Origin: Eledone cirrhosa
Taxonomy: Eukaryota
DNA length: 64,000 bases
Assembly (NCBI GenBank): GCA_964016885.1
Contig: OZ024745.1
Coordinates: 27,528,001 to 27,592,000, forward strand
Reading direction: 5' to 3'
Position 1 is the first letter of the stretch. Every line of letters starts with the position of its first letter. Shown here in pieces: positions 1 to 60,587 of the stretch. The notes beneath the pieces were generated by a model. That model was given only the letters and a program-made list of their open reading frames with translations, made no database searches and had not been told where the DNA came from. Position numbers and translations under genes: made by a program.

Positions 1-2317
1 TTGTTCTGGCTGTATGTTCACATGTATCTTTTAAGACCTCCCATGCTTGTACATTTCTTGCACCTTTTCAGATCATGATCTACATGAGGTCTACTGATAT
101 GACTTTGTTCATGTCTAATCAAACCAGCTTTGCTCAGGCTGACTCGACCACAGTGCTGGCAAACCAGATGATGTTCAACAGCAGGCAGTTCAGAACAGTC
201 TCAATCCTCACCTTCTTTTTCAGTGTTAGGTGTTCTCTCTGACGAGTTTCAAAGTGTTCATCACCTGACTTGATCAAACGTCTCCACTTCACACGCTCGT
301 CAGCCATTTTCTTCCATTCGTCAGATGAAATTCTAGCAGAAACCAAGGTGCCTCTGATACAGTCATGGTACCGCCTTTTTGGTTTATGTGGTGGTCGCCT
401 TCCTTCACACAGTTCTCCATAGAGAAGTTGCTTTGGAATACGATCATCAGACATCCGGACCACGTGACTGCACCACCTCAACCAATACCGAAAGATTTTG
501 CTCTCTATAGTCATGCACCTGCTCCGTTCTAGAACTTCCAAATCACTGGAGGACATTTTCCACCTCACCCCAAGTAACTTATGAAGAGATTGTTGGTGAA
601 ATCTCTCCAGATCCTTGAGGTGCTTTCTGTATGTGACCCACGTTTCACAAACATAAAGTAAAGAGGAGACGACACAAGTCAGATACACTTTCACCTTGGT
701 TTCGATAGTGATACCTCGTCTGGACCATAAACGTTGATGCAGCCGTCCAAAAGCATCACTGGCTTTCTTGATTCTTAAGGATATTTCATTATCATGTGTG
801 CATGAAGTGTTCAAGGTAAACAAACTTGTCAGCAACTTTTAGCCTCTTTCCGTACACGTACACACTTGGTGCAGTGTACTCGTTTCCAGGTACTGGATGA
901 TACATCTCAACAGTCTTTTCCAAGCTTATTGTGACGCCCAAAGTGCTGCAAGCTGCAGAAAAAGAGTTCATAATATGCTGCATGTCACTTTGTGAGTGTG
1001 CAAAAAGATCGCAGTCGTCTGCATACAAAAACTCTCGGATTATAGATGTTAATACCTTTGTGCTTGTACCAAAGTGCCTGGTGTTGAACAACCTTCCTGA
1101 AGTGCAATACCTGATATAAACCCCATGAGAACAATATTTGAATGCCATGAGAAACACTATCGTAAAATATGAGGAAAACAGAGTTGGAGCCGGAATGTCT
1201 CCCTGCTTTACTCCATTTTCAACTGATATTGGTTCAGAGATGCTACCACCAATACTGACCAAAGCCTTCATGTCATCATGGAAAAGATGCAGAATCTTCT
1301 ACCCTACCTTGGATTTTTTTCCCACAAAGCAGTTCGATTGACAGTGTCAAAGGCCTTTGTCAAGTCAACAAAGACCTGGTAAAGGTCCATATATTGTTCG
1401 ATACACTTTTCTTGCAGCTGCCGAGCAAAAACGATCATATCCACTGTTCCTCTTTCGTTTCTGAACCCACACTGCGACTCAGGCAACACATTCAGAGCAA
1501 CTCTTGGGACCAATCTATCCATCAATATTTGACACGACTTTACCAACTACTGAAAGAAGGGATATGACATGATAATTGCCACATTTGTCCTTGCCGTCCT
1601 TTCCTTTATGTAGAATCACCATGAGCGCATCCTTCTTGTGGGACATTCTCATCTTCCCACACCATTTTCATGAGGTCAGTCAGGCGCTGCGTGAAGTTTT
1701 CACCACCACACTTCAAAACCGCTCCACTCAGACCATCCATACCAGGAGACGTACCACAGTTCAGCTTATGCACAACAGAAGTCCCCTCTGCAAGAGAAGA
1801 TACATTAGCCATCTCATATGCTTCACTGGTTCAATAGGAATGGAACAAATGAAATCATCATCAACCTGGGATGGTTGGTTTAAGAGCTCGTCAAAGTGAT
1901 CTCTTATCTGTCGAGTGTCTTTTGGGTCGCGCAGTAATTGCTTGCCATCTTTCGATCTCAAAGGGGCCACTGGAGAGCTGAAAGGGCCTTACACCTCTGT
2001 GAGTAGAAAGTGCAGCAGTTTCACATTGTTGCCGTCAGATGCCACTTGAACTTCATCTGCTTTGTTGCTCCACCAGGTATTTTGCATAGCCCTGAGTTTC
2101 ACCTGCACTTCCTTCTTTACCTGTCTGTAACGCTCATAATTGTCACCAACAGAGCTACCACCTTTAAGAACTGCATCAAGTGCCTTTTATTTTCTGTCTA
2201 GCAGAGCCTTGACCTCCTGGTCATTCTCATCAAACCAGTCCTTGTTTTCTTGTGACAAAGCCAAGGACCTCTGCTGAAGCCTCATAGACCGAGCTCCTGA
2301 AGTCCTTCCAGTTGTTC
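1..2317 (-). mobile_element. Decayed RTE (BovB-like) non-LTR retrotransposon, 5'-truncated and frameshifted; its 3' end runs off the window start
   Basis: Consecutive minus-strand ORF pieces give RT motifs: LPESQCGFR..RGTVDM, FVDLTKAFDTV, GVKQGDIPAPTLF, FLYADD, and the RTE C-terminal RMSDDRIPKQLLYGEL. Confidence 0.92.
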
Positions 2318-10327: not shown

Positions 10328-10398
10328 ATGTATGTATGTATGTATGTATGTATGTATGTATGTATGTATGTATGTATGTATGTATGTATGTATGTATG
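10328..10398. repeat. (ATGT)n microsatellite
   Basis: Perfect tetranucleotide array abutting the 3' end of R4-like copy A1. Confidence 0.97.
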
Positions 10399-11823
10399 TT
10401 TTCTCTTTCTCTTAATTTTGAGTATATTTTTTGACCGGCCACCTTCCTGGTGGCAAGGTTGTAAAAGAAAAGAAATTGTCATCCCTTGAATCGCAAGAAT
10501 GTTTTGCAAATTTTGAAGGTGCCAGCTATCGCAGCCATTTGTAGACTATGAATTAGGGAGCTGCGCTTTTTGTCCGCAAATCCAAGTTCAGTCATACTTT
10601 GGTCCAAGCGGGTTGGTATATAACCCGTAGCACCAATAATGATGGGTATGAAGCTAAAGGTGTATCTTGGATACTGGATTTGTAAACTCCTCATCAATGG
10701 TCCGTAGATGTCCTCCTTCTCCTGTATTTTTCTGACAACGTTTACATCAAGTGGGCAGCTGATCTCCACAACAGAACACGTTTTCAATGTGTGGTCCCAA
10801 ACAACAATATCAGGCCGGTTGTGCTTTAATTTGGTGGCAGTTTTTATTTTCAGGTTCCACCAGTATTCCTTAGTGCCATCTGTCTCAATATATTCTTCCT
10901 CGTTTGTTGTTGATTTTGTTTTCCGAAGTGCGTTCCAGATGGTTCTAGCTATCCCATCGTGTCTCATGGGGAGGTAGTAGCGAGATGACATTCTTTCGCA
11001 GCTGGCAACAATGTGGCTTACATCCTCGATCTTTGTTTTACATAGCCTACATTTATTGTCAGCTGCTGGCCCTCCTCTTTTGTGCAGCAGATATTTGGTA
11101 GGGAGTTCTTGTTCCTGTATTGCATAGAGATATCCCTCAAGGTGTGATGTCATAAACTTGTCGGAACTCCATGCCAGGCTTTTTGAGTGGTTTATCCCCT
11201 CTATGGTCTGTGTTTTACGCCTCAAGTATCCATGCACAACTTTTTCTGTAAATTGGCCAATTTTTTTTTCTTGTTTGAACATTGAATAGGATCTTCCAAT
11301 TTCTCTGGGTGAGAGATTTATATCGGGCTTTATTCCATATCTCTCCTCCAGATCAGTCGCTATTCTAATGATATTTCTTTTTTCATGGTCATAAACCTGG
11401 GCAAGATGGTTGCCAACCTTTTTCCTCTGTTGAAGGTGTTGCTTCAGTGTCACTATCCGGGTCTCATATGTTGTTAATATTGATTTTAGACCCCGGCCAC
11501 CTTCCTTGCGTGAGAAGTATAGCCTATCCACATCACCATTGATGTTAAAGTTCCCAGTAACACTGAGAAGTTTTCGAGTTCTAACATCCATCTCACTTAG
11601 TTCTTGCAATGACCAGTTCAGTAGGCCAAATGTTGGCGTTAGAATTGGCACAGCATAAGTATTGTGGGCAATATATTTGTTGTATGCTGACAGTTCTGAT
11701 GAGCATATTTTCTTTACTCTTCTGAGGTATTCAGTTCTGGTTCTCTCCTTATTTATGGGTCCATCATATCTGACATTCTCATCCTGTCCAAGATATCTGT
11801 AGTTGTCACCTGACTGCAGAGGG
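10399..11823 (-). mobile_element. R4/Dong-clade non-LTR retrotransposon, family A copy 1, 5'-truncated (ORF 10479-11651 and upstream in-frame sequence)
   Basis: YRYLG, RLYFSRKEGGRGL, CCHC finger CRLCKTKIEDVSHIVASC, RHD, and the restriction-like endonuclease motif NRPDIVV..VVEISCP. Confidence 0.92.
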
Positions 11824-12013
11824 TGTATGTATGTATGTATGTATGTATGTATGTATGTATGTATGTATGTATGTATGTATGTATGTATGTATGTATGTAT
11901 GTATGTATGTATGTATGTATGTATGTATGTACGTACGTACGTACGTACGTACGTATGTATGTATGTATGTATGTATGTATGTATGTATGTATGTATGTAT
12001 GTATGTATGTATG
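11824..12013. repeat. (ATGT)n microsatellite with an internal (ACGT)n variant block
   Basis: Seen directly; separates two R4-like elements. Confidence 0.97.
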
Positions 12014-15000
12014 TTCTTCTGGTTTTATAATTTCACAAAGTTTTACCAATAGAGAGAGAGAGTCGGTTTCTAACATAGACACAAGACTCTCTCTTTGGAA
12101 TTTACACAACAACTAGGTAGATATGTATGTATGTCTGCATGTGTAGATATGGATGTTATTGTATGTGTGGATGTGTATATTTTGAGTTGTATGTGTGGAT
12201 GTGTATATTTTGAGTTGTATGTGTGCATGTGTATATGCTTTGTATCTGTACATGTGTATATGCAGTTATTAGATGCAACATTTTTGGAATGTTTTACATA
12301 TTTTTACTGTTTCATTAATGGATTGTACTTGTAGTTTCCTAACTAGTTGTGTTCTTTCTGTTTCTGTGAAGCCTAGCTTCTCAAGATTTGTATTGGGGCA
12401 GTTACTAACATACCCCAGTGCCCCAATAATCACAGGCATAAATCTGAAGGTGTAATCAGGGTGGAGTATCTGCAGATTTCTCATCAGTTCTGCATAAATA
12501 TTCTCCTTTTCACTAATCTTTGATATTATATTGGCATCTGCTGGGCAGCTAATTTCCACTACTGTGCATGTTTTCTTCTCCCTGTCCCATATCATAATAT
12601 TTGGTCTGTTATGCCTGCATTTTATTGGGGTTTTTACTGGAACATTCCACCAGCACTCTTTTATATTATGTACATGGATGTCTTCCACATTGTTGTAGCT
12701 TTTAATGTGTTTATTATACAGTGCATTGTACAGTGTTTTGGCCACTACATCATGCCTCATAGGTAGATAGTACCGCGATGACATCTTTGGGCAGCTGCTG
12801 ATGACATGGGTGATATCCTCGATGTTAGTTCTGCAGAGTCTGCACTTGTTATCACATCTAGGTGTTTTGCCTGCATCCCTATCTCTTTTGTGAATCAGGT
12901 ATTTCGTGCTAATCTCCTGTTCTTGGATTGCAAAAGCGTATCCTTCAAAGTGGGAGCCAATATAGCGGTTGTTGGTCCAAGATAGACTACTTTTCTTATC
13001 TATATTATTCTCACTCTGGAGCTTCCTGGCAACATATCCATGCATGACTTTTTGCTGATAGGCATGCAGTTTTTCATCCATGGATTCACTGCGATACTGC
13101 TGAGCGACATCCCTGGGTGTAAGTTTTTGATTATCACACAGGGAATATCTCCCAAGGAGTTCCTTCCCAACTCTCATGATCTTATCTGTTTCATGCAGAT
13201 AGACTTGCTCGAGAAGCGGGATCCTACGCTTCGAGGTTCGTAGATGTTGTCGGAGAGATATGATGCGACATTCAAATGTTGTCTGGACTGATGTTAGGCC
13301 TCTGCCTCCCTGCTTACGTTTCAAGTAAAGGCGGTCTATGTCACTGTTGATGTGGAAGTTTCCGGTGTTGTTCAGTATTTTTCGAGTTCCAACATCAACT
13401 GCTCGGATTTCGTCTATCGTCCAATTGAGTATTCCAAACGTTGGTGTTAGGACAGACACAGCAAACACATTGTGAGCCACTGTTTTGTTTTGCGCAGAGA
13501 GTTCCGATGACCAAATCTTTCTTAATCGGGTGTAGTATTCCCTGGTTACGCGTTCTTTATTACAGATACCATTATAGGATATGTTCTCATCTATCCCCAG
13601 GTATCTGTAGCAGTCCTCATCAGATATCGGTGAAACAGTTAGACCATTGATGACAATGTTGCTAGATTGGGTTGTTGTTTTTCCCCGCTTTACAGTCATG
13701 TATGAGCATTTATCTTGGCCAAACTCTATTCCTATATCCTTTGAGAACGTTGTAATCAGGTCAAGATTTTTCTTCATCCCATCCATGTTCTTGGCATAGA
13801 GTTTCAGATCGTCCACAAAGAAGTTATGGGTTAGGTTCGTATTTCTGTCCTCCTGTGAGCCAATGATGTATCCCTCACATTTCTTGAGCAGAAATGACAA
13901 GGGGTTTAATGAAAAGATGAACAATATCACAGAGAGACTGTCCCCCTGAAATATACCCCTGCAATATTTTATTTTATCAGTGAAAATAGAGTCCTCCTTC
14001 TCTGTCTTTAACCTTAGGATAGTAGCCCAAGAAGAAGACAGCCTCTCTATGGCTCTGACAATAATGTCTGGGACTTTAGCAAGTTGGAGGGCCTCTATCA
14101 TCCAAGAGTGGGGAACAGAATCGAAAGCTTTCTTGTAGTCCAGCCAGACTGTAGTCATATTCTTCCTAAGTTGTCGCACATCCGACATCGCAGTTTGTTG
14201 ATTAGGAGTTGTTCAGCACATCCCCAAACCCTTTTCTTTCCAGCTGCTTGTTCATCTGTGATGATGTTATTATTTTCACAGTGATCTTGGAGGAATAGGT
14301 TCAGGCAGGCTGTATACATCTTATACATCAGGTTCTGGCATGCAATGGATCGGTAGTTTTTTTGCCAAGTGGGTATCTTTGTTCTTGGGGACCAGTAACG
14401 TTTGTGCTAATGTCAACCATTCTGGTATAAGTGTATCTCCCTTAAGAACTTGTTGGTAGAGGTCAGTGAGATACCTCCGATAGAATATTAGTTTTTTGTA
14501 CCAGTAGCCGACAATCATGTCTCTTCCTGGTGTTTTCTTATCTTGGAGTTTTCCTATCACAGTCTCAAGGGTACCCTCACTTATTTCATATGTTTTTGTT
14601 GTAGTGTAGGAGCAATAGTTCTTTCGGATTTCTCTTAGCCACACTGCATCTTGGTTGAAATTCTTCTTTTCACCCCATATATTTCTCCAAAAGGAATCTA
14701 TGTCTTTCTGGGATGGGGCCTCAGTAACACTTATTATTTTGCCCTTCATATCTCTATAGACTGATGTTTGGTTTCGTTTGAATCTTTTATTAAGCATTTT
14801 TCTCTCATCTACCTTCTTCAGGTATCGGCGTTTTTCGCTAACAGCTCTCAATTCTTGTTTATTGGAGAGTTCTGGTTCTACTGTTACCAAACATCGTCTC
14901 TATTTTATTTTTCACTCTTTGTTGGTGAGGAGTGAGGTTTTTTTGTGTTTGTTTGCATGTAAGGAGCATTGTCACATGTCCTATGTTTTTTCGTAGGTCA

Positions 15001-16189
15001 GCACTCCTTTTTTCTATTTTAGTTATATATGATGGCATTTTTAGCGGTGTTTTTTTCTTGTTAATATCTCTGCTATCACCAAGATAATGCTTCACTGTCA
15101 TTGCTAAGGCATATAAACAGGCGTTGATTTGCCAAAATGTTGGGGTTTTTATCCGTCGTAAATATTCATCCCCTATTTCGTCAATAACACGTAGTATTTC
15201 ATTATTTGGTTTTTTATTCACCATTGTCATTTTAACACGTTCAGCCAGAGAGATATTTATACATGAGTTAATTTCTCTCTGGAAGATTTCGTTGAGGGAA
15301 ATTTTCAATTGTTTATACTTTTGATTATCATTATCGATAGTATTTTCCACAACAGTCGAGGTAGACTCGGATGGTGTCAAATTTCTTCGATTATTATCAT
15401 TATCGATAGTATTTTCCACAATAGTTGAGGTAGACTCGAATGGTATACGTGGTGTCAAATTTATTCGATTATTATTATTATCGATAGTGTTTTCCCCAGC
15501 ATTCGAGGTAGACTTAGATGGTACAGGTGGTATCAAGTTTCTTACAGGCATAGTTGTTTCAAGGCGCTGTTCGACCTGGCTGCTAGGAAGTCTAGTAGCA
15601 TGGCGATCTGTAGCACGTGTTGTTGATAACATGTTTGTTGTGCAGGACTTACAATTAATAATATTTATCTTATTTTTACGTTCAACAAACGTAGCTTGTT
15701 GGCGTAATTGTTTCGCTGTGAAATAATTTAGCTCTGGGTGCATTTCGTCCCAGTGTAGCTTCATTCTATTCATATAGCCAATGGAGGGATTGTTTTTTGC
15801 CATTTTATAACAATTAAATAAATCATTATTAAGTTCGCAACTCCAAGAGAAATGCGATTTATAATTTCGGTTTCTTCTGTAGCTACAACTGAATAAAGTT
15901 TGATTACCTTCTTTGTTATTTGTCTTCGATACTTCCTTAATTTTCTTGTTGATGTTGTGTTCAGCCATGCTGTTTGTAGCAAATCCTTGTAAAATGGATT
16001 ATGTATTTAGTCGGATATCTCTACGAATTCGAATAAAAGGTGTCTTCAGAAGGGATAGTTAGAAGAATAACCAGTTATTCAACCTGGCTGTAGTTGTGGC
16101 ATTACTGTCGGAGATAGTATTCATCTTAAATTTAATAAATAGTCTCCCACGACAAAATATGCGACTGATCGCGTTGACTGATGGAATGG
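12014..16189 (-). mobile_element. R4/Dong-clade element, family B, apparently full length but frameshifted (ORF pieces 14859-15968, 14321-14890, 12269-14188)
   Basis: WLDYKKAFDSVPHSW, GIFQGDSLS, FFVDDLKL, CRLCRTNIEDITHVISSC, RHD and NRPNIM (PD changed to PN). About 220-bp 5' UTR and 255-bp 3' UTR. Confidence 0.92.
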
Positions 16190-16223
<34 letters not shown>

Positions 16224-16283
16224 TGTATGTATGTATGTATGTATGTATGTATGTATGTATGTATGTATGTATGTATGTATATG
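16190..16283. repeat. (ATGT)n microsatellite
   Basis: Seen directly; separates two R4-like elements. Confidence 0.97.
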
Positions 16284-17237
16284 TTCTCTCTTTCTCTTAA
16301 TTTCGAGTATAATTTTGACCGGCCACCTTCCTGGCAGCAAGGTTGTAAAAGAAAAGAAATTGTCATCCCTTGAATCGCAAGAATGTTTTGCAAATTTTGA
16401 AAGTGCCAGCTATCGGAGCCATTTGTAGACTATGAATTAGGGAGCTGCGCTTTTTGTCCGCAAATCCAAGTTCAGTCATACTTTGGTCCAAGCGGGTTGG
16501 TATATAACCCGTAGCTCCAATAATGATGGGTATGAAGCTGAAGGTGTATCTTGGATACTGGATTTGTAAACTCCTCATCAATGGTCCGTAGATGTCCTCC
16601 TTCTCCTGTATTTTTCTGACAACGTTTACATCAAGTGGGCAGCTGATCTCCACAACAGAACACGTTTTCAATGTGTGGTCCCAAACAACAATATCAGGCC
16701 GGTTGTGCTTTAATTTGGTGGCAGTTTTTATTTTCAGGTTCCACCAGTATCCCTTTGTGCCATCTGTCTCAATATATTCTTCCTCGTTTGTTGTTAATTT
16801 TGTTTTCCGAAGTGCGTTCCAGATGGTTCTAGCTATCCCATCGTGTCTCATGGGGAGGTAGTAGGGAGATGACATTCTTTCGCAGCTGGCAACGATGTGG
16901 CTTACATCCTCGATCTTTGTTTTACATTGCCTACATTTATTGTCAGCTGCTGGCCCTCCCCTTGTGTGCAGCAGATATTTGGTAGGGAGTTCTTGTTCCT
17001 GTTTTGCATAGAGATATCCCTCAAGGTGTGATGTCATAACTTGTCGGAACTCCATGCCAGGCTTTTTGAGTGGTTTATCCCCTCTATGGTCTGTGTTTTA
17101 CGTCTCAAGTATCCATGCACAACCTTTTCTGTAAATTGGTCAATTTTTTTTATATTGTTTGAACATTGAATAGGATCTTTCGATTTCTCTGGGTGAGAGA
17201 TTTATATCAGGCTTTATTCCAAATCTCTCCTCCAGAT
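16284..17237 (-). mobile_element. R4/Dong-clade family A copy 2, 5'-truncated (ORF 16363-17055)
   Basis: Nearly identical to 10399-11353, including the 3' UTR. Confidence 0.93.
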
Positions 17238-17440
17238 GTATGTATGTATGTATGTATGTATGTATGTATGTATGTATGTATGTATGTATGTATGTATGTA
17301 TGTATGTATGTATGTATGTATGCATGTGTGTGTATGTATGTACGCAGGCCCCTATACATATATGTACACAGGCCCGTATACATGTATGTACACAGACATG
17401 CAGGTACAAACATATATATATGTGTTTATGTATGTATATG
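17236..17440. repeat. (ATGT)n microsatellite followed by degenerate TG/TA repeats
   Basis: Seen directly. Confidence 0.93.
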
Positions 17441-17879: not shown

Positions 17880-19580
17880 GAAAGAATGGTATTTAACTAA
17901 TGTATTGGTACGCGATGGGGCTCACCCACAGCCCCGGCGGACAGAATGGAGAAGGCGTTTCCCCGGAGGACAGCAAGGGAGACGCGCTGGAAAAGCCACT
18001 CAAACTCGCGGGGTTCACACCTACGGCTGGCCAGCTCAGCGCCTATAGTGGTGAGTAAGGAGGTAGCCCTGGGGCCGAGGACACCAGAAGTTTCCACTGC
18101 CAGGGGAACGACCGCAAACCTGCCGGAGAGCGACCGGCATTTGAGGAGTTTGGACCCCTCAGCCCGACGTGCAGCAGAACCTGGGTCAGTCGCAGACTGC
18201 ACCAGGTTGCGGCTTCAAAAAGTGTTGGTGCAAGTGGAATCCCAGACGAGGGGTTTGCCACCGCGGAACGGGAAGATGGTCATGCCATCTGGCCTTTTGC
18301 CGTCCCCTCGATCGAGCCCCACCGGCTCGATCTGGGAAGGGAAGCCTGCAGCGTCCAAGCCATGCTTAATGACCTCGTTGAGGGCAGTATGGCGTGGAAT
18401 GCGGCCGGCACTGTGGCGACAGGAAAGCGGGTGGAGGCCGAAAGAGTCCACGGTGGAACCGCAGCGACATTGGTGTGGCTCGCAGATCCGGAGGCCGAGC
18501 CTCAAGGAAACGCCGATGCGCAGACTATTGTTGTCTAGCTGCGTGCCAGTGGAAAAGGAGGGCAGAGCATGGAGCCAGGCACCACTATAGGGTTTGGAGG
18601 CCGCACGAAAACAAGCAAGGCGGTGCTGGTCGAGCTGGCGCGTGAGCCTGTCTGAGGTCAGGCTGCACTTGATGGCATCCCAAGTGCGTTGGGGGGACTT
18701 GACGTCAAAAGGGGGAGAAGGAGGAGGGACGTCTACCGGGCTAAGTCCCAGCCGGTCCCACGTCTCACAGGCGGCCTCACGTTCTCTGAACACAGGGGGT
18801 TCTGTTGTGTTTTGAAGAACCCTGCTGACGAGGACGCGGCACGAGGTTACCGACGAAAGATACGACGGCAAAGCTAGTGAGATCGGAGACCGGAGGCCTA
18901 GGCCGCCATACCTGACCGGTAAAGTGGCCTGTTGCCACCCTATCCTATGTCGTCAAACTTGACGTTGCATATCCCCTCGGCTGCTGCTCGGATACAAGTA
19001 TCGAGGTCAGCGAGGAGAGATGTCTGGGTGTAGCATGGAGCGCTGCGGAGTGTATAGCGGAGCTTCGGCATGGCGAAGCAGTTCCTCAGCAGAAAGAGAG
19101 CTGGGTGGCCGTCAATCAAGCCCAGTCGGCTCGTGAGAGTCTGGAGCTGTTGAAGCCTTGACCTGATGGTGGAGCGGATGGCCGGCGGGTGGATCGGTGA
19201 CCCGAGGATGAGGACATCCTCTTTGGGGGGGGGGGTGTCACCTGAACCTGGCGGAGAATGGACCGCACGTCCAAGACGGAGGCTGCAAAGCTCAAAGCAT
19301 CGAGGCTGACGTTCACCACCTTCGACTTGGCCGAGTTGACCTGGAGGCCGATTCCCGCCAGGGCAGGAATCACCGATTGAAGGTCTTGGCAGACCGTCCA
19401 TACGGGCCCGCCCAAAGTAGCATCATCCAGATACCAAACGTTGAGAGGGGCCGTGATACACCGGGCGATGTGGTCAATACCAAGGGCGAACAGGAGGGGT
19501 CCCAAAGGGTTGCCCTGTGGGACCCCAGTAGCCGAGGGTATGACCGTATCAGCAGCTAGGAGCATGCTCGGGGCTCCATA
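17880..19580 (-). mobile_element. CRE-clade non-LTR retrotransposon (RT plus restriction-like endonuclease), 5'-truncated, frameshifted, GC-rich
   Basis: GVPQGNPLGPLLF, WYLDDATLGG, CRCGSTVDSFGLHPLSC, RH, KRPDGMT..WDSTC and PLAVETSG, which are typical CRE-clade motifs. Confidence 0.88.
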
Positions 19581-19777
19581 TAGATCCAGTATAGTTTCTT
19601 TCTATTATTCTATTACTGGTTTTATACCTTGTTAGACTGTAGCCATTCTAGGGCACCACCAGAAAGGATTTAGTGATCATGTCGATCGCAATACATTTTG
19701 TTTTCAAATCTGATTCTTATTTTATCCGATTCTTTTTGTCGAACCGCTAAATAAATGTAACGACACATTCATACTTA

Positions 19778-19893
19778 CATTAAAAAATTGTGCATGTAAT
19801 AACTGCATATACATTTGTATACATACAAAACATATGCACGTGTACAGATATAACTCAAAACATAGATATCCACACATACAATAACATCCATAC

Positions 19894-19964
<71 letters not shown>

Positions 19965-20010
19965 TGCATACATACATATCTACCTAGTTGATGTTGTCTA
20001 AATTCTAATT
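19778..20010 (+). mobile_element. Old 3'-end fragment of R4-like family B with a (CA)n expansion
   Basis: Reverse-complement similarity to 12095-12292 (end of ORF plus 3' UTR). Confidence 0.75.
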
Positions 20011-20129
20011 GCCCCTCGCCCCATTATACCCGGCCCTGGGCACACCAGGAGTCTCTCTCTTCCCACCTTTTTTTGCTGACATTATTTCTCAGATCTTCAG
20101 GTAGACGATCAGCCGAATTAGTCTTGCGA

Positions 20130-49571: not shown

Positions 49572-49727
49572 TATATATATATTATTGTCTTTAAAGCGTT
49601 GAAATATCCGAGACCCCCAGTAGACAACTGACGAGGACCCCCCCCCCGCGTTTTTGCTTTTTTCTTATTCTCACTCCATTTTTAAGCCTACCTTAACTAC
49701 CAACTACACAGCCAATCCTATTCTCCA

Positions 49728-49817
<90 letters not shown>

Positions 49818-49819
<2 letters not shown>

Positions 49820-51999
49820 AATTTCTTACGTGACAACTTACTGCAGGCTACTGATGAAACTTGTGGCTGGAGCAGAGCTTCAACCAGACAGAGAGTGACC
49901 TGGTGGTGGAACAGCACAGTAGATAAGGCCATTAGAGACAAAAGACTAGCATGGAAGGCTTTGAAAAAGGGTGGGAGTAGGGAAGAATATACAGCCACTA
50001 AGAGAGAAGCTAGACGTCAGGTGTACATAGCACGCAGGGAGGCGGAGAGTAGGAGGTTTGCCAATGTTCTGCGACGGGAAGATCAGAGGCGTGCGGTGTT
50101 CCACATTGCAAGGCAGTGTGTCAATGCAAATCAGGATGTTGTTGGAGATAAATGTGTCCGGGATGATGCCGGTGTACTTAGTGTCACGAATGATCAGAAA
50201 AAGGAGGCCTGGAAATGTCATTATGAGAGACTGATGAATGTGGAGAACGAATGGGAGAGAGAGAAATTACCCTTAGTAGATCCGACAGAGGGACCAGCTA
50301 TTGAGATTGACGAATATAGGGTCCTAGAGGCGATTAGGGAAATGAAAAATGATAAGGCTGCTGGACCATCGGGAATAGTTGCTGAGATGCTGAAGGCATT
50401 AGGGGACGTAGGCACTAAACTGGTTGCACGCATCATCAATCAGGCTATATATGGTGGTGTCATACCCAAAGACTGGTGCAGCAGTATTCTCATAAATTGC
50501 TACAAAGGTAAATGGGATGTTCTGGAGAGGAGCAATTATAGGGGTATAAAACTGATGGATCAGGTTATGAAAGTGCCAAAAAGGATATTAGCACAACTAA
50601 TTAGAGAAAGGGTCAAACTAGATGAGATGCAGTTTGGTTTTGTGCCTGGGAAGAGTACAACCGATTCCCTCTTCTTGGTGAGACGATTGCAAGAGAGGTT
50701 CTTAGAGAAAAATAAGCCACTATACTTAGCCTTTGTTGACCTAGAGAAGGCCTTTGATAGGGTACCCCGATCTGTCATCTGGTGGTCCCTAAGGAAGCTA
50801 GGTGTTGAGTAATGGCCTGTGAGGACAGTGCAAACTTTGTACAGAGGTACTCTCAGTAAAGTCAGGGTAGGAATGGAGTTTAGTGAGGAATTCCAGATAC
50901 AAGTAGTACATCAAAGTTCGGTCCTCAGCCCGCTCTTGTTCATTATAGTCCTCCAAGCCATAACAGAGGAGTTTAAGACTGGCTGTCCATGGGAACTTCT
51001 CTATGCTGACGATCTGGTTCTTATAGCAGAATCAGTAGAGGAGCTAGAGAATAAATTTTGGCTATGGAAACAGCAGTTGGAAGCAAGAGGACTGAGAGTG
51101 AACCTAGCTAAGACAAAAGTGTTGATGAGTAGAAAAGAGGACAAAACCCTGATTCCGTCAGGGAAATGGCCATGTTCGATATGCAGAAAAGGAACTGGCA
51201 TAAATTCTATAAAATGCACACAATGCAGTTCCTGGGTACACAAGAGATGTAGCGGGATAGCAGGCAAACTAACAGGTAGGGAGAAATATGTATGCAGTAG
51301 ATGTACAGGGAAATTAGACAGTAGAAGTCGCATTGATAGACACATTTTTCAGATGCAGGAGGGCGCTATAGAAGTGGTGGATAGCTTCCGGTACCTAGGA
51401 GATCAGATTAGCATGGGAGGAGGGTGTTCCGAGGCCATAGTATCTAGAATAAGGACGGGTTGGAAGAAGTTTAGCGAGCTGCTTCCTCTGTTGACGAAGA
51501 AGGGTTTCTCCCTGCGTACGAAAGGCCGGTTGTATGATGCCTGTGTGAGGAGCGCGATGCTGCATGGTAGTGAGACATGGGCAGCAACTGCAGAGGATAT
51601 GCGACGGCTGGAGAGAAATGAGGCAAGCATGCTCCGTTGGATGTGCAGTGTAAATGTGCGTGAACGACCCAGCATGAATGTGTTGAGAGAGAAACTGTGT
51701 CTGAGAGGGATAGAATGTAGTGTACGGGAGAGGAGACTGAGGTGGTATGGACATGTGATGCGCATGGAGGATGACCGATGGGTGAAGAAGTGCCAGGAAA
51801 TGCCAGTTGAAGGAAGACGTGGTAGAGGTAGACCACGAAAACATGGGCGGAGGTGGTGAGAACAGACCTCAGATCATTGAAGCTCACGGTGGAGATGACG
51901 AAGGACCGTGACGAGTGGAGAGATGCTGTGCTGAATAAGACCCGTCCCACCCTTGCAAGCAGGGAAAAGCGGACGTAAAATGATGATGATGATGATGAT
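49818..51999 (+). mobile_element. RTE-clade LINE, 5'-truncated at (TA)n, with few lesions (ORFs 49895-50812 and 50819-51859) and a (TGA)n tail
   Basis: QFGFVPGKSTTD, FVDLEKAFDRVPR, LLYADDLVL, FRYLGD and RLRWYGHVMR; premature TAA at 50810-50812. Confidence 0.93.

Positions 52000-53348: not shown

Positions 53349-53379
<31 letters not shown>
53349..53379. repeat. (TAA)n tail or target of the intact R4/Dong element
   Basis: (ATT)10 on the plus strand directly abuts the element 3' UTR. Confidence 0.9.
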
Positions 53380-53380
<1 letters not shown>

Positions 53381-53523
53381 AGTTGCATTTATCTTGCTTT
53401 ATGTTCATACGAGTTATCACCAAGTCACAACCAGTGACCTCAAGAGACAACAAGGTCCGCCATGTTCAAGAAAGAACATACATATTCACACATGCATCTT
53501 TAGTGTTTAGACTTGTGATGTAC

Positions 53524-56500
53524 TTATATTGACAGAATCTTCCTTAGTATATGGGCAGTTCCCATTAGTACTATCTTTTGTATTTCTCCTATACGCGGGT
53601 TTCCTGGGATTTGCGATATGTAATCATTAGACCCCTTAGGTATCATTCCTAGAGCGCCTACAACCACTGGTATTGTTTTAGTTCTCAATTTCCACATTTT
53701 TCCAATTTCTATCTCCAGGTCCTTATACTTGCTCAATTTTTCAAATGTTTTTATAGATACATTCTTGTCTATTGGAACAGACATATCAATTAGCAGGCAT
53801 ACCCTCTTTTGAAAGTCTTTCAATATTATATCAGGTCTGTTTGCATCTATTTTTCGGTCTGTTTGGATGCTAAAGTTCCACAAGATTGAGATGTGATCTT
53901 TTTCAAGTATGGGAGGTGGTTGATGCTCCCACCAATTCTTTTGATGGGGCAGGTCAAAATGCTTACACATTATCCAATGTATGTATTGTGCAGCTCTGTC
54001 ATGCCTGTTTAGGTATTCGGTTGGAGCTATAGGACTGCACATTGAAATTATATGGTCAATGGTCTCTGGTTGTTTTTTGCATACACGGCATAATGGGCTG
54101 CACCCATTTTTTATTATGTTGGCTTGGTAATTTTTTGTTGGCAGACACTGATCTTGTGCCGATATAATCAGTCCTTCAGTCTCCGATTTCAGTCCAGAGG
54201 ATGCCAACCACTGATGGGTTAAAGTTTTGTCAACATCAGGATTGTTAGCTCGCTCTGGGTATTTTCCATACAGAGGCTTTTCTTGCCATTTCTTAGCCAG
54301 TTTCTGTAGCAGTTCTTTCTTTGCAGTTACTTTTACCTGCTTTGCTTTTTCTGTGTTTTCCATTTCAGCAGTAAATGGGACTTCTGAAATTTGTAGTCCA
54401 TTACTGTATCTTTGTGCATCTTTTGTAATGGAATATGATCTTTTGATGCTTTCGTGTTTCAAAACGAGTTTGATCATCCAATCATGTGATTCCCTTAGAT
54501 ATGTAGATAATCCAATTGTTGCAATTTTCAACGCAATGTCTAACTGGATTAACCCACGTCCTCCTTCTTTCCTAGGGAGATATATTCTATCTATATCTGC
54601 TTTAGGGTGATGCATTCTGTGCATGGTTAAGAATTTTCGAATTTTTGTATCGAGCCTACGGATCTCTGTGCTTGACCAGTTGATGACATTGTAACTGTAG
54701 GTTACTACTGGTATGGCAAGCGTGTTTATGGCATCGATCCTATTCCTTGCTTTCAATTCCGTTTTTAAGATTGCTCTCACTCTGTGGTAACATTCCTTCC
54801 TTATCCTTTCCCTCATTGTCGAGTGCTTGATTCCGTCTCCTTCACAAACACCTAGATATTTGTAAGTGTTTTCTTGATCAAGTTCTCTTATCACGTTCCC
54901 CCGATCAAGATTAATGTCTGAACTCTTCAGCAGCTTTCCTCTGGTGAACGTTGCTTTGGCGCATTTATCTAGTCCAAACTCCATTTTAATGTCATCACTG
55001 AACTGCTTCACAGTGGATAATAGCCCTTGCAATTGTTCATCATTTTTTGCAAATAGTTTCAGGTCATCCATGTAGAACAGGTGATTAATGGTTTTGTCAT
55101 AGACTTTATATCCATGATTTGTTTCATTGAGCATTTTACTTAATGGTATAAGTGCGATGCAGAATAAAAGCGGTGATAAAGAGTCACCCTGAAAAATTCC
55201 ACACTTAATATTAACTTCTCCAGCTTCCAGTGATTTTGTTTCACTATTCAAAAGGAGTGTCGTTTTCCATGTCTTCATACTGAATGACAAAAACCTCCTG
55301 ACAACGGGGGATACTTTGAAAATCTCTAAACATTTTTCAATCCAACTGTGTGGCAAACTATCAAATGCTTTTTTATAATCTATCCAAGCAATCGATAGAT
55401 TTTTGTGTCTATTATGACAATCTTCCAGTATCATTTTGTTAAACAGAAGCTGATCCTTACAGCCATATGAGCTTCGTTTACACCCTTTCTGCTCAATGGG
55501 AAATAGGTCATTTGTTATCAGGTGGTCATATGTGTATTCAGTTAGGACTGATGTTAAAATTTTATACATTGTGGTCAAGCGAGTTATCGGTCTGTAATTT
55601 TTGGGATTGCTTGTCTCATCATTCTTCGGAAGCAGGAATGTAATGCCGTTAACTAGCCATGAAGGTATCTTTTCTGGCTCCTTAACTATTTCATTGTAAA
55701 GTTGGGCTAACAGCTCATGAGACTCTGTGAAGGCATTTATCCAAAAGTTTTGTATTTTGTCTTTTCCTGGGGATTTCCATTTGCTGGTTTTTCTTAGAGC
55801 CAAGCGCAACTGTTCAACTGTTATATTTTCCCATGTTTGTTCCTCAAGGTGAGCTGTATTTTTCATTTGTCTGTCTATCCATGGGGCATGTATGTTATGA
55901 ACTTTTTCTTCGGCCCAGATCTTTTCCCAGAATTCTTGCACTTCCTCCTTGGGTGGTATTGATTTAGCAGTTATTGTTGACTTACCAATTTTTCTGTAGA
56001 AGTTTCTTTGGTTGTTTTTGAACATATTATTGTCCTTATAGAATCTAGATCGTTTTTCAAAGCGCCTTATACGAGCAGCTTTGGCCGACACTTTTTGCTT
56101 GATTATTTCTATCAGCATGTCTATGTCACATGTTGATTTTATACTGTACTTTTTTTTAAATTTTCTAAGTTTAGTTTGTTTAACATGTTCACCTACTTTA
56201 TAGTTTGTTAAAATTTCTATGTCAGATCGGAGAAGGTTTATTTGGCGATTGATGTTCTCTTGCCAAGTAGATTTCTTGTGGGAATTCCTTTGTTTTTTCA
56301 TCTTCACTCCACATAAGTGAGTGGTGACTTTAGCCGATGCATAATAGAGATGGTTTAAATCAGTAATGTTTAGTTTGTTTGTGATGATAATGTTTTTGAG
56401 AATTATGTTAGTCTTGTGTATTATCTTTTGGTTCTGTTTGGAGTTCTGGATCTTAGGGAGTTTGTCTCGTTGCCCCATGTCAGATTCTTTCATTTTCATC

Positions 56501-57174
56501 CATTCGATCATAATTTCATCCTTCAAGTTGGCAAGTTCATTCTCATTCATTTCTTTATCATTTACGATCTCATTATTTTCATTTGGAGTTTCATCCTGAG
56601 CATGCACTCCCTCCATTTTTTCGATCCTTTCTTTAATTTTTTCTGTTGCCAGTGATTCCGCCCCAATCCTGGGATTCGAAGTGTTACAGTTTACCTCGTT
56701 TTCACTGACACATGTTTCATTTTCCCTTTGCTGACTTTGTGCTAATAGCTTGATCTGATCAATTTCTATATCAGTTAGTAACTTTTTTCTTACAATATTT
56801 CTTCGTATATTGGCTAGTTTGTTGCTGTCAATATAGCCTCTGTTTTCGGGATGTTTCTTTTTCCAGTTGATATATGTCTGTTCTATATTCGATGTATTTG
56901 ATGGGTAGTACATGGCAGTGTAGAAAGCCTCAAGGACTTCTTTATTATCTTCCCTTGACCATTTTTCTCTCTTTTTCTTTGGATTTCTTGGTGGTGAGCA
57001 TGGAGGGCCAACAGTAGGAGTATTCCGGTTATGGGAGGTCTCCAGCTCCGAAGTGATGGGAAGGTTTGAACCATTAGCTGATTTTTCGACCCCAGTCTGG
57101 TTCCTCTCTGAGGGACGCGGCCCTTTTTTACCCGGGTGACGGCCGATCCGGTATGAGATTTTATCATTAGACAT
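53524..57174 (-). CDS. Intact 1216-aa ORF of an R4/Dong-clade non-LTR retrotransposon (RT, CCHC finger, restriction-like endonuclease); element about 53380-57375
   Basis: Uninterrupted ORF with WIDYKKAFDSLPHSW, GIFQGDSLSPLLF, HLFYMDDLKL, CRVCKKQPETIDHIISMC, RHD and NRPDIIL..LLIDMSVP..KLSKY. Confidence 0.95.
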   Translation of the reverse strand: MSNDKISYRIGRHPGKKGPRPSERNQTGVEKSANGSNLPITSELETSHNRNTPTVGPPCSPPRNPKKKREKWSREDNKEVLEAFYTAMYYPSNTSNIEQTYINWKKKHPENRGYIDSNKLANIRRNIVRKKLLTDIEIDQIKLLAQSQQRENETCVSENEVNCNTSNPRIGAESLATEKIKERIEKMEGVHAQDETPNENNEIVNDKEMNENELANLKDEIMIEWMKMKESDMGQRDKLPKIQNSKQNQKIIHKTNIILKNIIITNKLNITDLNHLYYASAKVTTHLCGVKMKKQRNSHKKSTWQENINRQINLLRSDIEILTNYKVGEHVKQTKLRKFKKKYSIKSTCDIDMLIEIIKQKVSAKAARIRRFEKRSRFYKDNNMFKNNQRNFYRKIGKSTITAKSIPPKEEVQEFWEKIWAEEKVHNIHAPWIDRQMKNTAHLEEQTWENITVEQLRLALRKTSKWKSPGKDKIQNFWINAFTESHELLAQLYNEIVKEPEKIPSWLVNGITFLLPKNDETSNPKNYRPITRLTTMYKILTSVLTEYTYDHLITNDLFPIEQKGCKRSSYGCKDQLLFNKMILEDCHNRHKNLSIAWIDYKKAFDSLPHSWIEKCLEIFKVSPVVRRFLSFSMKTWKTTLLLNSETKSLEAGEVNIKCGIFQGDSLSPLLFCIALIPLSKMLNETNHGYKVYDKTINHLFYMDDLKLFAKNDEQLQGLLSTVKQFSDDIKMEFGLDKCAKATFTRGKLLKSSDINLDRGNVIRELDQENTYKYLGVCEGDGIKHSTMRERIRKECYHRVRAILKTELKARNRIDAINTLAIPVVTYSYNVINWSSTEIRRLDTKIRKFLTMHRMHHPKADIDRIYLPRKEGGRGLIQLDIALKIATIGLSTYLRESHDWMIKLVLKHESIKRSYSITKDAQRYSNGLQISEVPFTAEMENTEKAKQVKVTAKKELLQKLAKKWQEKPLYGKYPERANNPDVDKTLTHQWLASSGLKSETEGLIISAQDQCLPTKNYQANIIKNGCSPLCRVCKKQPETIDHIISMCSPIAPTEYLNRHDRAAQYIHWIMCKHFDLPHQKNWWEHQPPPILEKDHISILWNFSIQTDRKIDANRPDIILKDFQKRVCLLIDMSVPIDKNVSIKTFEKLSKYKDLEIEIGKMWKLRTKTIPVVVGALGMIPKGSNDYISQIPGNPRIGEIQKIVLMGTAHILRKILSI

Positions 57175-58252: not shown

Positions 58253-58364
58253 TCTTCTTCTTCTTCTTCTTCTTCTTCTTCTTCTTCTTCTTCTTCTTCT
58301 TCTTCTTCTTCTTCTTCTTCTTCTTCTTCTTCTTCTTCTTCTTCTTCTTCTTCTTCTTCTTCTT

Positions 58365-58433
<69 letters not shown>
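58253..58433. repeat. Compound (TCT)n(TAT)n microsatellite
   Basis: Seen directly. Confidence 0.97.
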
Positions 58434-58877: not shown

Positions 58878-60552
58878 ATGGATTCACCAAGAATCGACTC
58901 TTCCACGCCAAACACCACTGACGCCACCACCACCACCACAACTGAAACTAAAAATAACAATAACAACAACAGCAACAACAACAACATCAACACCAGCGCA
59001 AAACAAAATGTGTCTTTTGCCAAAGCAGCCAAGAAAAGTGAAACAATCGAGATAAGTCAGGATGAATTAAATGAAGCCAAGCCAATGGTAAAAAAAGATG
59101 GGTACAGGGTCAGTCCCCCCCCACACACACCTAATAAAATGCACCGTGTCATATCGGACGATAAACACAAAATCACGCCGTGTGGAACGGGCATCCGAGT
59201 CCCAAATACAAAAAGCTTTGGGACATGTGTGGGCGAAACAAATCCACATCAGACGTGGGCAGAAATATGGAACTGTGGACGTGTTCTTTGGAACACTACA
59301 GGAAGCCAGAGAGCACTCCATGGCCCCATTAAGAAGTGACGACTTCACAATCGTCCCAAGCTATTGTAGTCAGAGACTCGTGAAGATCAGGGTGACCCAC
59401 GTTCCACCGGCCATCGAAATTCCCTGGCTAATGGCTGCCGTCCTCGCCGTCATCGAGGCCAACGCGAAAATAATTGAAATATCAAAAGAAAAGCAGGAGA
59501 ACTGGTCCGGATCTGGGATGGAGCTCCTGATCCAAGCGGACCATAAAAGCATTGAGGAGATCCCAGAGGTAATAGACCTCACTGACGGCAGCCACCCCAC
59601 CGTAATCATTAAGGGTAGAAGGCCTAGGTGTGTCGTTTGTGGTGAAGGAACCCACCTAAAGGCTTTCTGCCCCCAGGCTAAAAAGTTGAGGCTACCTCTC
59701 TTACCCACGCCAGTTACTCAACCATCAACACCACCAGCAGCAGAAATGGCAGCAACAACTGTAGCAGCAACAACAGAAGCAACCGTAGCAGCAACAACCC
59801 CAGCAACAGTAGCAAAACTAACACCACCACCACCCACCGCGCCAGAATTAACACCAGCGCCTCCACCATCCACCACGCCACAACCAAAACCAACGCCTGT
59901 GGAGGATTTTCCACTCCCTGACCTATCGCAACTGGAGACAGATTGTGACGACGAGGAGTGGGAAACTGTATCAGGAAAAAAGAAAAAAAGAAAAAGAACC
60001 CCAAAAAGAAAAAATCCTCTTCCTTCGCCCTCCAAAAACAAAATGCAGGGGCAAACAAATAAACAAACAAACAAAAAAGTTAGGACAGCTATGCCACCAT
60101 CCACACCAATATCACCAACTCCATCACCACAAACACCAACACCATCACCATTATTAACCCCAACACCATCATCACCAACACCACAAAAGTGACCAAAAAC
60201 TGAAACAGAAACAAACCCACAACAAACGCAAACAAAACAAAACAACCAAAACGATACACACTACACAGCCTTAAATTTGAACAACAACCAATTATTACAC
60301 TACATCCAACACAACACCAGCATCACAGAAAAAGACTACACAACAACCCAAAAATTCACACGACCTCCACACATACAAATCACTCGCATCACACAGAAAA
60401 CGTACACGACACTAAAACAAAAATTCCCCAAGGACATCGGAAACTTCCGACAAACACCCTCCAGGAGGATTTATAAGGACATCCTTCCTGAGGAGGCCAC
60501 AAGCAGTGAAAAGGATGGAAAAACCGTCCTTCCTCTACGAGAAGTAAGGTAA
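58878..60552 (+). pseudogene. ORF1 (gag-like) of an L1/Tx1 element, disrupted
   Basis: SFAKAA motif, zinc knuckle CVVCGEGTHLKAFC, Pro/Thr-rich tract and WETVSGKKKKRK; split over 58878-59339, 59098-60192 and 60277-60552. Confidence 0.8.
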
Positions 60553-60587
60553 GTGGTCTTTCCCATCTTTTTCCACTCTTTTTCAAC

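What the first reader, a model, noticed from the sequence alone, without database searches (positions are those of the whole stretch)
10328..17322. Three R4/Dong-clade retrotransposons stacked head-to-tail in one (CATA)n microsatellite
Seen: two distinct families (A twice, B once) are in the same orientation. Every junction is (CATA)n on the element strand and all three 3' ends join in the same register (..AA|CATA). The 5'-truncated copies also abut the repeat, so it is a target and not only a tail. Established: Dong targets (TAA)n and R4 targets 28S rDNA. I do not recall a (CATA)n-specific R4 lineage, but novelty needs a Repbase and literature check.
Basis: partly seen in the sequence, partly recalled or inferred. 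Interest (0 to 1): 0.72.

Follow-up and report, generated by a model that had tools for sequence, protein, structure and literature searches.

The report
Tetranucleotide-targeting Dong/R4 retrotransposon lineage
Three copies of two retrotransposon families sit end to end inside one (CATA)n repeat, and relatives from other sequence sets are flanked by (CATA)n or (CTTA)n, so this is likely a branch of Dong-type elements that inserts into four-letter repeats instead of the known (TAA)n.

Summary
Two 5'-truncated copies of family A (97% alike) and one decayed near-full-length copy of family B (51% aa identity to A) lie on the minus strand, with a (CATA)n array at every junction. These are the only long (CATA)n arrays in the 64 kb. 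The proteins have the R4/Dong architecture: N-terminal Myb/SANT-like fold, RT, CCHC knuckle, C-terminal restriction-like endonuclease. Independent support: metagenome relatives in the same 100/100 clade abut (CATA)n or (CTTA)n at 5 of 5 visible 5' ends and 6 of 6 visible 3' ends, from about two independent hosts. The (TAA)n-flanked elements, including an intact one in this window, fall outside the clade. A covarying 3'-UTR hairpin marks the 3' ends. Most likely this is target-primed insertion into (C[A/T]TA)n that regenerates its own target. Protein versus RNA-tail guidance is untested, and the genome-wide 5'-flank test was inconclusive. Microsatellite targeting is known (Dong: TAA; the APE-type Waldo: ACAY). 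I found no report of an RLE lineage on (CATA)n or (CTTA)n, but Repbase and two key papers were not available. New variant of a known kind.

The parts
10328..10399 (-). (CATA)18 array at the 3' junction of A1
10400..11823 (-). Family A copy A1, 5'-truncated inside the RT. Open 445-aa frame with RT C-terminal part, CCHC knuckle and RLE (HNRPD..E.SCP..K); 79-nt 3' UTR
10434..10459 (-). 3'-UTR hairpin of A1 (3-bp outer stem, internal loop, 6-bp inner stem, 5-nt loop)
11824..12014 (-). (CATA)15(CGTA)6(CATA)26 array between the 3' end of B and the truncated 5' end of A1
12015..16188 (-). Family B copy, near full length and decayed. Frame breaks near 14862, 14357 and 14193; the RLE motif reads PN where relatives have PD. 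Myb-like domain, Asn-rich linker, RT, knuckle, RLE, 254-nt 3' UTR
12062..12087 (-). 3'-UTR hairpin of B
15663..15887 (-). N-terminal three-helix Myb/SANT-like domain of B, preceded by a conserved SYRRNR.Y basic arm
16189..16280 (-). (CATA)23 array between the 3' end of A2 and the 5' end of B
16281..17235 (-). Family A copy A2, 5'-truncated at a different point (A1 coordinate 11352), two coding indels relative to A1; hairpin at 16318-16343
17236..17342 (-). (CATA)n array at the truncated 5' end of A2, fading into degenerate CATA-rich host sequence; no R4-like element upstream
53349..57174 (-). Comparison element C, not part of the stack: intact 1216-aa R4/Dong ORF with (TAA)10 at its 3' end
19783..20060 (+). 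Degraded remnant of the family B 3' UTR without its terminus and without long (CATA)n flanks

Best explanation
Families A and B are R4/Dong-type non-LTR retrotransposons of a distinct sub-lineage flanked by (CATA)n or (CTTA)n, and they likely insert into these repeats by target-primed reverse transcription, probably with the element's own protein recognising the repeat. Shown: the architecture, the junctions, the clade, the flanks of relatives and a covarying 3'-UTR hairpin. Inferred by analogy with R2: the protein binds its RNA through the hairpin 34-50 nt from the 3' end. The N-terminal Myb-like domain with its basic SYRRNR.Y arm, together with the RLE, would bind the repeat duplex. The RLE would nick the (TATG)n strand, predicted at TAWG|TAWG from the 3' register, and that 3'-OH would prime cDNA synthesis. 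Early termination gives 5'-truncated copies joined back into the repeat. Each insertion leaves repeat on both sides, so the site stays a target for both families. Copies therefore pile up head to tail, all in one orientation because the two strands of the repeat differ. A1 and A2 came from separate events.
For: (CATA)n lies at all six element ends against a 0.06% background outside the stack. A1 and A2 have different truncation points, and their differences are enriched for synonymous changes (pS 0.055, pN 0.016; 10 of 20 codon changes silent after dropping 1 indel artefact; binomial p=0.004). That fits two active source copies, not a local duplication. Of 15 metagenome loci, 10 fall in the A/B clade (support 100/100). 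All 5 with a visible 5' end and all 6 with a visible 3' end abut (CATA)n or (CTTA)n; L002, L006 and L007 have it on both sides; L001 has unique flank beyond its 5' array. 3' junctions start at the C position of the unit in both groups; in L006 the first unit reads TATA. (TAA)n-flanked elements C, L014, L017 and L020 lie outside the clade. The Myb-like fold is predicted at pLDDT 85 with Myb/SANT/trihelix matches at Z 5-5.9. The hairpin is 98% paired with 7 of 9 pairs compensatory, and 0 of 500 shuffles match its covariation score. B is a high-copy family with about 10-fold 3'-over-5' depth.
Against: No genome was available, so flanks of other A and B copies were not counted. One search showed only 24 of 6205 loose ends. 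Of the 12 on the element's 5' side, one (X4, place 12956) runs into a TATG-like repeat after 13 other letters, and the rest are uninformative or not CATA. A degraded B remnant at 19783-20060 has no long (CATA)n on either side. L008's contig starts with (AAT)17, which reads as an in-frame Asn-rich linker but could be a TAA flank of a truncated copy. By their contig names the supporting loci come from about two independent sources, L003 and L009 are one family, and short-read contigs tend to break at microsatellites. Full-length 5' repeats could be carried in the RNA. No binding or cleavage was tested, and the fold Z-scores are middling. No reads spanning the stack's junctions were laid.
Confidence: 0.7

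Rival explanations
1. The elements are targeted, but by RNA-DNA pairing. The transcript ends in (CAUA)n, a weakly specific endonuclease or host nicks open AT-rich repeats, and priming succeeds where the tail anneals to (TATG)n. Specificity would follow the tail, not the protein.
For: Every 3' end runs straight into the repeat in a fixed register, as an inherited tail would. The CATA and CTTA families share a very similar Myb-like domain and RLE. B groups weakly with the CTTA subclade (85/80) yet sits in CATA.
Against: RLE elements are described as mostly target-specific (PMC4640811, passages), and the R4/Dong Myb domain is proposed to direct insertion (PMC7998251, passages). The basic arm before the Myb domain is shared by this clade and its sister clade and is absent from the TAA-flanked C and L020. 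None of this is a direct test.
Confidence: 0.2
2. (CATA)n is only a 3' tail. The stack arose by recombination between tails, by passive accumulation in a repeat-rich region, or by an assembly misjoin through the arrays.
For: The junctions were not checked against spanning reads. The genome is rich in microsatellites. The remnant at 19.8 kb lacks arrays.
Against: A2's 5' array has no element whose tail it could be. B carries private changes and frameshifts absent from most family reads (5727 of 6113 reads in X22 lack the break at 14193), so it is a single copy and not a collapsed consensus. The window holds no N. Relatives in other data show the same two-sided flanks.
Confidence: 0.08

Closest known systems
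Dong / DongAg / DongBg (R4/Dong clade, RLE type)
   Same: Single ORF with N-terminal Myb/SANT-like domain and no zinc finger, RT and RLE; insertion into a microsatellite (PMC7998251 passages; PMC3812793 passages). Element C in this window looks like this type.
   Different: The target is (CATA)n or (CTTA)n, not (TAA)n. A and B are only 27-31% identical to the (TAA)n-tailed C and form a separate 100/100 clade with a basic arm before the Myb domain.
WaldoAg1, WaldoAg2, WaldoFs1 (APE type, R1 clade)
   Same: Target ACAY microsatellites, a class that includes (ACAT)n = (CATA)n (PMC3812793 passages).
   Different: Waldo uses an APE endonuclease. A and B have a C-terminal RLE and no APE match. The shared target would be convergent.
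R4 of nematodes
   Same: Same clade architecture, including the divergent Myb domain (PMC7998251 passages).
   Different: R4 targets rDNA; no Rfam family, rRNA included, matches the window or five related loci.
R2 (solved structures 9NL3, 9DOU, 8GH6)
   Same: Closest solved proteins, E 9e-51, over RT to RLE; the source of the TPRT model used here.
   Different: R2 has N-terminal zinc fingers and a 28S rDNA site. No solved R4/Dong protein appeared among the 9 hits.
Cephalopod Dong-R4 repeats
   Same: Dong-R4 is abundant in octopus: 51 families, 92.7 Mb in O. vulgaris (PMC13282606 supplement). Family A's nearest named relative is an Argonauta hians protein, 70% over 137 aa.
   Different: The passages read in three cephalopod papers give no target sequence for these families.

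Membership tests
R4/Dong clade | Single ORF with RT, CCHC knuckle and C-terminal PD-(D/E)xK restriction-like endonuclease | tested here: met
   RVT_1 E 3.8e-18 and zf-RVT; C..C..H..C and PD..E.SCP..K motifs in A1, B (PN) and relatives; intact single ORFs of about 1130-1175 aa from the first Met in L001, L002, L004, L006, L007; profile matches R2 structures over RT to RLE
R4/Dong clade | N-terminal divergent Myb/SANT-like domain without zinc fingers | tested here: met
   Three-helix model, pLDDT 85; top VIA matches are GT-1, Zeste, ARR1, ISWI, Cdc5, Tbf1 at Z 5-5.9, middling scores; Foldseek gave no match at E<=0.001; Atlas lead Myb_Rap1 0.85
R4/Dong clade | RT phylogeny groups it with named R4, Dong and Rex6 references | tested here: inconclusive
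   No named reference sequence could be fetched. Trees use unnamed (TAA)n-flanked elements and a lepidopteran protein (P0130) as stand-ins
R4/Dong clade | Insertion into rDNA or a microsatellite | tested here: met
   (CATA)n at all six ends in the window; (CATA)n or (CTTA)n at 11 of 11 visible ends of in-clade loci
Dong in the narrow sense | (TAA)n target | tested here: not met
   A and B junctions are (CATA)n. Met at the 3' end of element C
Waldo (R1 clade) | ACAY microsatellite target | tested here: met
   (CATA)n = (ACAT)n (definition from PMC3812793)
Waldo (R1 clade) | APE endonuclease upstream of the RT | tested here: not met
   No APE family in B's frames or in full-length relatives P0018, P0218, L002; RLE motif present
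R2 clade | N-terminal C2H2 zinc finger(s) and a 28S rDNA site | tested here: not met
   No zinc-finger family N-terminal of the RT; no rRNA match
HERO clade (some families target microsatellites) | RT phylogeny with HERO references | not testable with these tools
   No HERO reference could be fetched; microsatellite targeting of some HERO families is stated in PMC4640811
Site-specific RLE retrotransposons | Sequence-specific nicking and TPRT on the target | not testable with these tools
   Needs a biochemical assay

The most novel reading that the evidence does not exclude
An undescribed sub-lineage of R4/Dong RLE retrotransposons, present in cnidarians and octopod cephalopods, that targets (C[A/T]TA)n microsatellites. 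It has switched at least once between (CATA)n and (CTTA)n and builds multi-family head-to-tail stacks. Its single Myb-like domain with a basic arm sets the target, giving a natural TAA / CATA / CTTA series with intact ORFs for working out how these elements read DNA.
Probability: 0.4. Interest if true: 0.68.

Novelty: new variant of a known kind. Interest (0 to 1): 0.55.

Why it matters
How R4/Dong elements choose their target is proposed (the Myb domain) but the passages I read give no test of it. Close relatives that differ by one base of a four-base target, with intact ORFs (L001, L002, L004 for CTTA; L006, L007 for CATA) and a defined 3' RNA hairpin, make domain-swap and tail-swap tests direct. 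An RLE lineage on (ACAT)n would also be a convergence with the APE-type Waldo elements. If these families are common in octopods, insertion into microsatellites would affect SSR markers, and it could hide new insertions from short-read callers; this last point is my inference.

Tried and rejected
No own genome was held, so no flank logos could be made. Read laying on B was inconclusive for 5' flanks. No RNA holder was listed. Rfam gave no match in the window or five loci, and the 5' ends of full-length copies align poorly, so no shared 5' ribozyme is claimed. Two further viral-contig scans found no relative. The genome-contig scan gave 4 loci: L016 and L017 fall in the TAA group, L018 is distant, and L019 was left out of the trees. 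The first 113-row IQ-TREE run timed out; it was redone with 61 rows (FastTree), 26 rows (IQ-TREE) and 32 rows. Foldseek found no significant match for the N-terminal domain, and hhalign of that domain to element C's was not significant (probability 2.4%). Three look-ups of earlier scan findings returned nothing. Rejected: a local duplication of A (different truncation points, synonymous excess), and B as a collapsed consensus (private changes). The hairpin pattern was written after inspecting the sequences, so its hit rate is descriptive. It missed L017 and L020, and L001, L004, L010 and L013, whose contigs appear to stop short of the 3' end. Ten literature searches found no paper on a (CATA)n- or (CTTA)n-specific R4/Dong element; one search returned 0 papers. 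Kojima and Fujiwara 2004 and Fell et al. 2025 were not held, and Repbase and Dfam could not be searched.
Full report
What is there. On the minus strand, 10328-17342 holds three non-LTR retrotransposon copies in one orientation, separated and bounded by four (CATA)n arrays of 72, 191, 92 and about 107 bp. A1 (10400-11823) and A2 (16281-17235) are 97% identical and truncated at different points. B (12015-16188) is near full length, 51% identical to A at the protein level, and broken by three frame shifts. All 5 perfect ACAT-class runs of 30 nt or more in the window lie in these arrays; outside the stack (CATA)>=3 covers 36 of about 56,900 bp. The three 3' ends read ..AA|CATA, with one base of ambiguity. 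A2's 5' array has no R4-like sequence upstream, so it cannot be another element's tail.

Independent insertions. A1 and A2 differ by 26 substitutions in 951 aligned bases, with pS 0.055 and pN 0.016. After dropping one codon that is an indel artefact, 10 of 20 changed codons are silent (p=0.004). This fits descent from two active source copies. Reads and contigs from four runs show B is a high-copy family, with 25,330 contigs laid in X1 and about ten times more depth at the 3' than the 5' end. This copy carries private changes: 5727 of 6113 reads in X22 lack its break at 14193. The order of insertion cannot be read from the locus.

What the elements are. B has RVT_1 and zf-RVT matches. A, B and relatives share a CCHC knuckle and a PD..E..K endonuclease motif; B reads PN. 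The closest solved proteins are R2 ORFs. B's N-terminal domain folds as three helices (pLDDT 85) and matches Myb/SANT/trihelix DNA-binding domains at Z 5-5.9, which the tool calls middling; Foldseek found nothing significant. This is the R4/Dong architecture described in PMC7998251 (passages). A basic SYRRNR.Y arm precedes the domain in this clade and its sister clade, but not in the (TAA)n-flanked C or L020. I could fetch no named Dong, R4, Rex6 or HERO sequence, so clade membership by phylogeny is not settled.

Relatives. One metagenome scan gave 15 loci. Ten fall with A and B in one clade (FastTree 100; IQ-TREE 100/100 on 26 rows holding 8 of the ten). Five show a 5' end: L006 and L007 abut (CATA)n, and L001, L002 and L004 abut (CTTA)n. 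Six show a 3' end: L006 and L007 run into (CATA)n, and L002, L003, L008 and L009 into (CTTA)n. L005 and L013 show neither end. The CTTA families form a subclade (97/93), A groups with L006 and L007 (93/91), and B's place is weak. Elements ending in or flanked by TAA repeats (C in this window, L014, L017, L020) lie outside the clade. Limits: by contig name these loci come from about two independent sources; L003 and L009 are one family; short-read contigs break at repeats; and L008 begins with (AAT)17, in frame with an Asn-rich linker, which I read as coding but cannot exclude as a flank. Named members of the clade are a Hydractinia protein (P0106) and an Argonauta protein, the nearest relative of A (70% over 137 aa). 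The host is therefore probably an octopod; this is an inference.

A 3' RNA element. A hairpin with a 3-bp outer stem, an internal loop, a 6-bp inner stem and a 5-nt loop lies 34-50 nt before the 3' junction in A1, A2, B, L002, L003, L006, L007, L008, L009 and L014, with a looser match in C. It was found in 12 of 18 UTRs scanned, L011 included. The window background is 0.09 per kb per strand, and at most 1 of 500 shuffles of each of 9 tested UTR ends matches. On six rows, 98% of cells pair and 7 of 9 pairs show changes on both sides, against 21-44% paired for slid controls; RNAalifold predicts the same structure. The pattern was defined after inspection and the six rows were cut to it. It is shared with TAA-type elements, so it likely serves template recognition and not target choice.

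How it most likely works. By analogy with R2 (established TPRT model; not tested here), the protein binds its RNA at the hairpin, recognises the repeat duplex through the Myb-like domain and RLE, nicks the (TATG)n strand and primes cDNA from the nick. The 3' register in both the CATA and CTTA groups predicts TAWG|TAWG, unless the RNA carries a repeat tail that sets the register itself. Truncated cDNAs rejoin in the repeat; A2 shows a 2-nt microhomology. Each insertion leaves target on both sides, which explains stacking by two families in one orientation. I put insertion into the repeat as a true target at about 0.9, protein-directed recognition at 0.7, guidance by an annealing RNA tail at 0.2, and a tail-only or misjoin origin at under 0.1.

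Results against this reading. The direct test, 5' flanks of other truncated copies, was inconclusive: one search listed 24 of 6205 loose ends, and of the 12 on the element's 5' side only one runs into a TATG-like repeat. A degraded B remnant at 19783-20060 (+) lacks long arrays on either side; it has lost its 3' terminus and is preceded only by a short CATT CATA CTTA run. No reads were laid across the stack's junctions.

What is known. PMC3812793 (passages) lists the microsatellite targets ACAY (Waldo), AC (Mino), TC (Kibi), TTC (Koshi) and TAA (Dong). PMC7998251 (passages) says the Dong target is (TAA)n in 'most' insects, molluscs and cnidarians, which leaves room for known exceptions. PMC4640811 (passages) adds (TG)n-specific Togen and microsatellite-specific HERO families. 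PMC13282606 (passages and one supplement search), PMC8967140 (passages) and PMC9115989 (passages) show Dong-R4 is abundant in cephalopods and give no target in what I read. Passages of PMC5678591, PMC3747384, PMC13708176, PMC7650587, PMC13586686 and PMC13580325 added nothing on this target. Ten searches found no report of a (CATA)n- or (CTTA)n-specific R4/Dong element. The primary survey (Kojima and Fujiwara 2004) and the recent RLE survey (Fell et al. 2025) were not held, and their tables, other papers' supplements and Repbase may list such a family; I put that at about even odds.

Verdict. It works like Dong, has the R4/Dong architecture, and fails the narrow Dong test of a (TAA)n target. 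It is a new variant of a known kind, with value mainly as a testable series of target switches. Interest 0.55.

Noticed in passing
window 53349-57174 (-): Third R4/Dong family C with an intact 1216-aa ORF and (TAA)10 at its 3' end. A (TAA)13(GAA)47 array at 58253-58432 lies 1.08 kb upstream of the ORF; whether it marks C's 5' end is unproven.
   Followed up: partly
window 19783-20060 (+): Degraded family B 3'-UTR remnant with an internal (CA)32 expansion, no terminus and no long (CATA)n flanks.
   Followed up: partly
L011:1925-2038: Member of the sister subclade has the same hairpin and runs into a short (CA)5 about 41 nt later; possibly another target class.
   Followed up: no
window 11932-11955: A (CGTA)6 core inside the (CATA)n array between B and A1; a point change that then expanded. 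L003's 3' array likewise drifts CTTA to CTGA to CGGA.
   Followed up: no
window 12117-12263 and 15324-15540: B carries CATA-rich tandem repeats in its 3' UTR, highly variable among copies, and a 78-bp coding tandem repeat in the linker after the Myb domain.
   Followed up: no
window 17900-19600 (-): Fragmented ORFs of another RLE-type element (GKRPDG...WDSTC motif), CRE-like by recall, next to the stack; no Pfam match.
   Followed up: no
window 134-1298 (-), 49697-51859 (+), 59092-62947 (+): Other LINE remains: two RTE-like and one L1/Tx1-like with ORF1 and APE-like frames, labelled by recall from the translations.
   Followed up: no
L020:2399-6370: A full R4/Dong element flanked by (TAA)17 and (TAA)98 inside a record of the viral collection; its Myb domain is closer to this clade's than C's is.
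   Followed up: partly
L016, L017: R4/Dong elements on short contigs of bacterial genome records, probably eukaryotic contamination.
   Followed up: no
protein cluster of P0007: Several members list the same longest-contig length (19485 three times, 17116 twice), which could mean stacked copies in another host.
   Followed up: no
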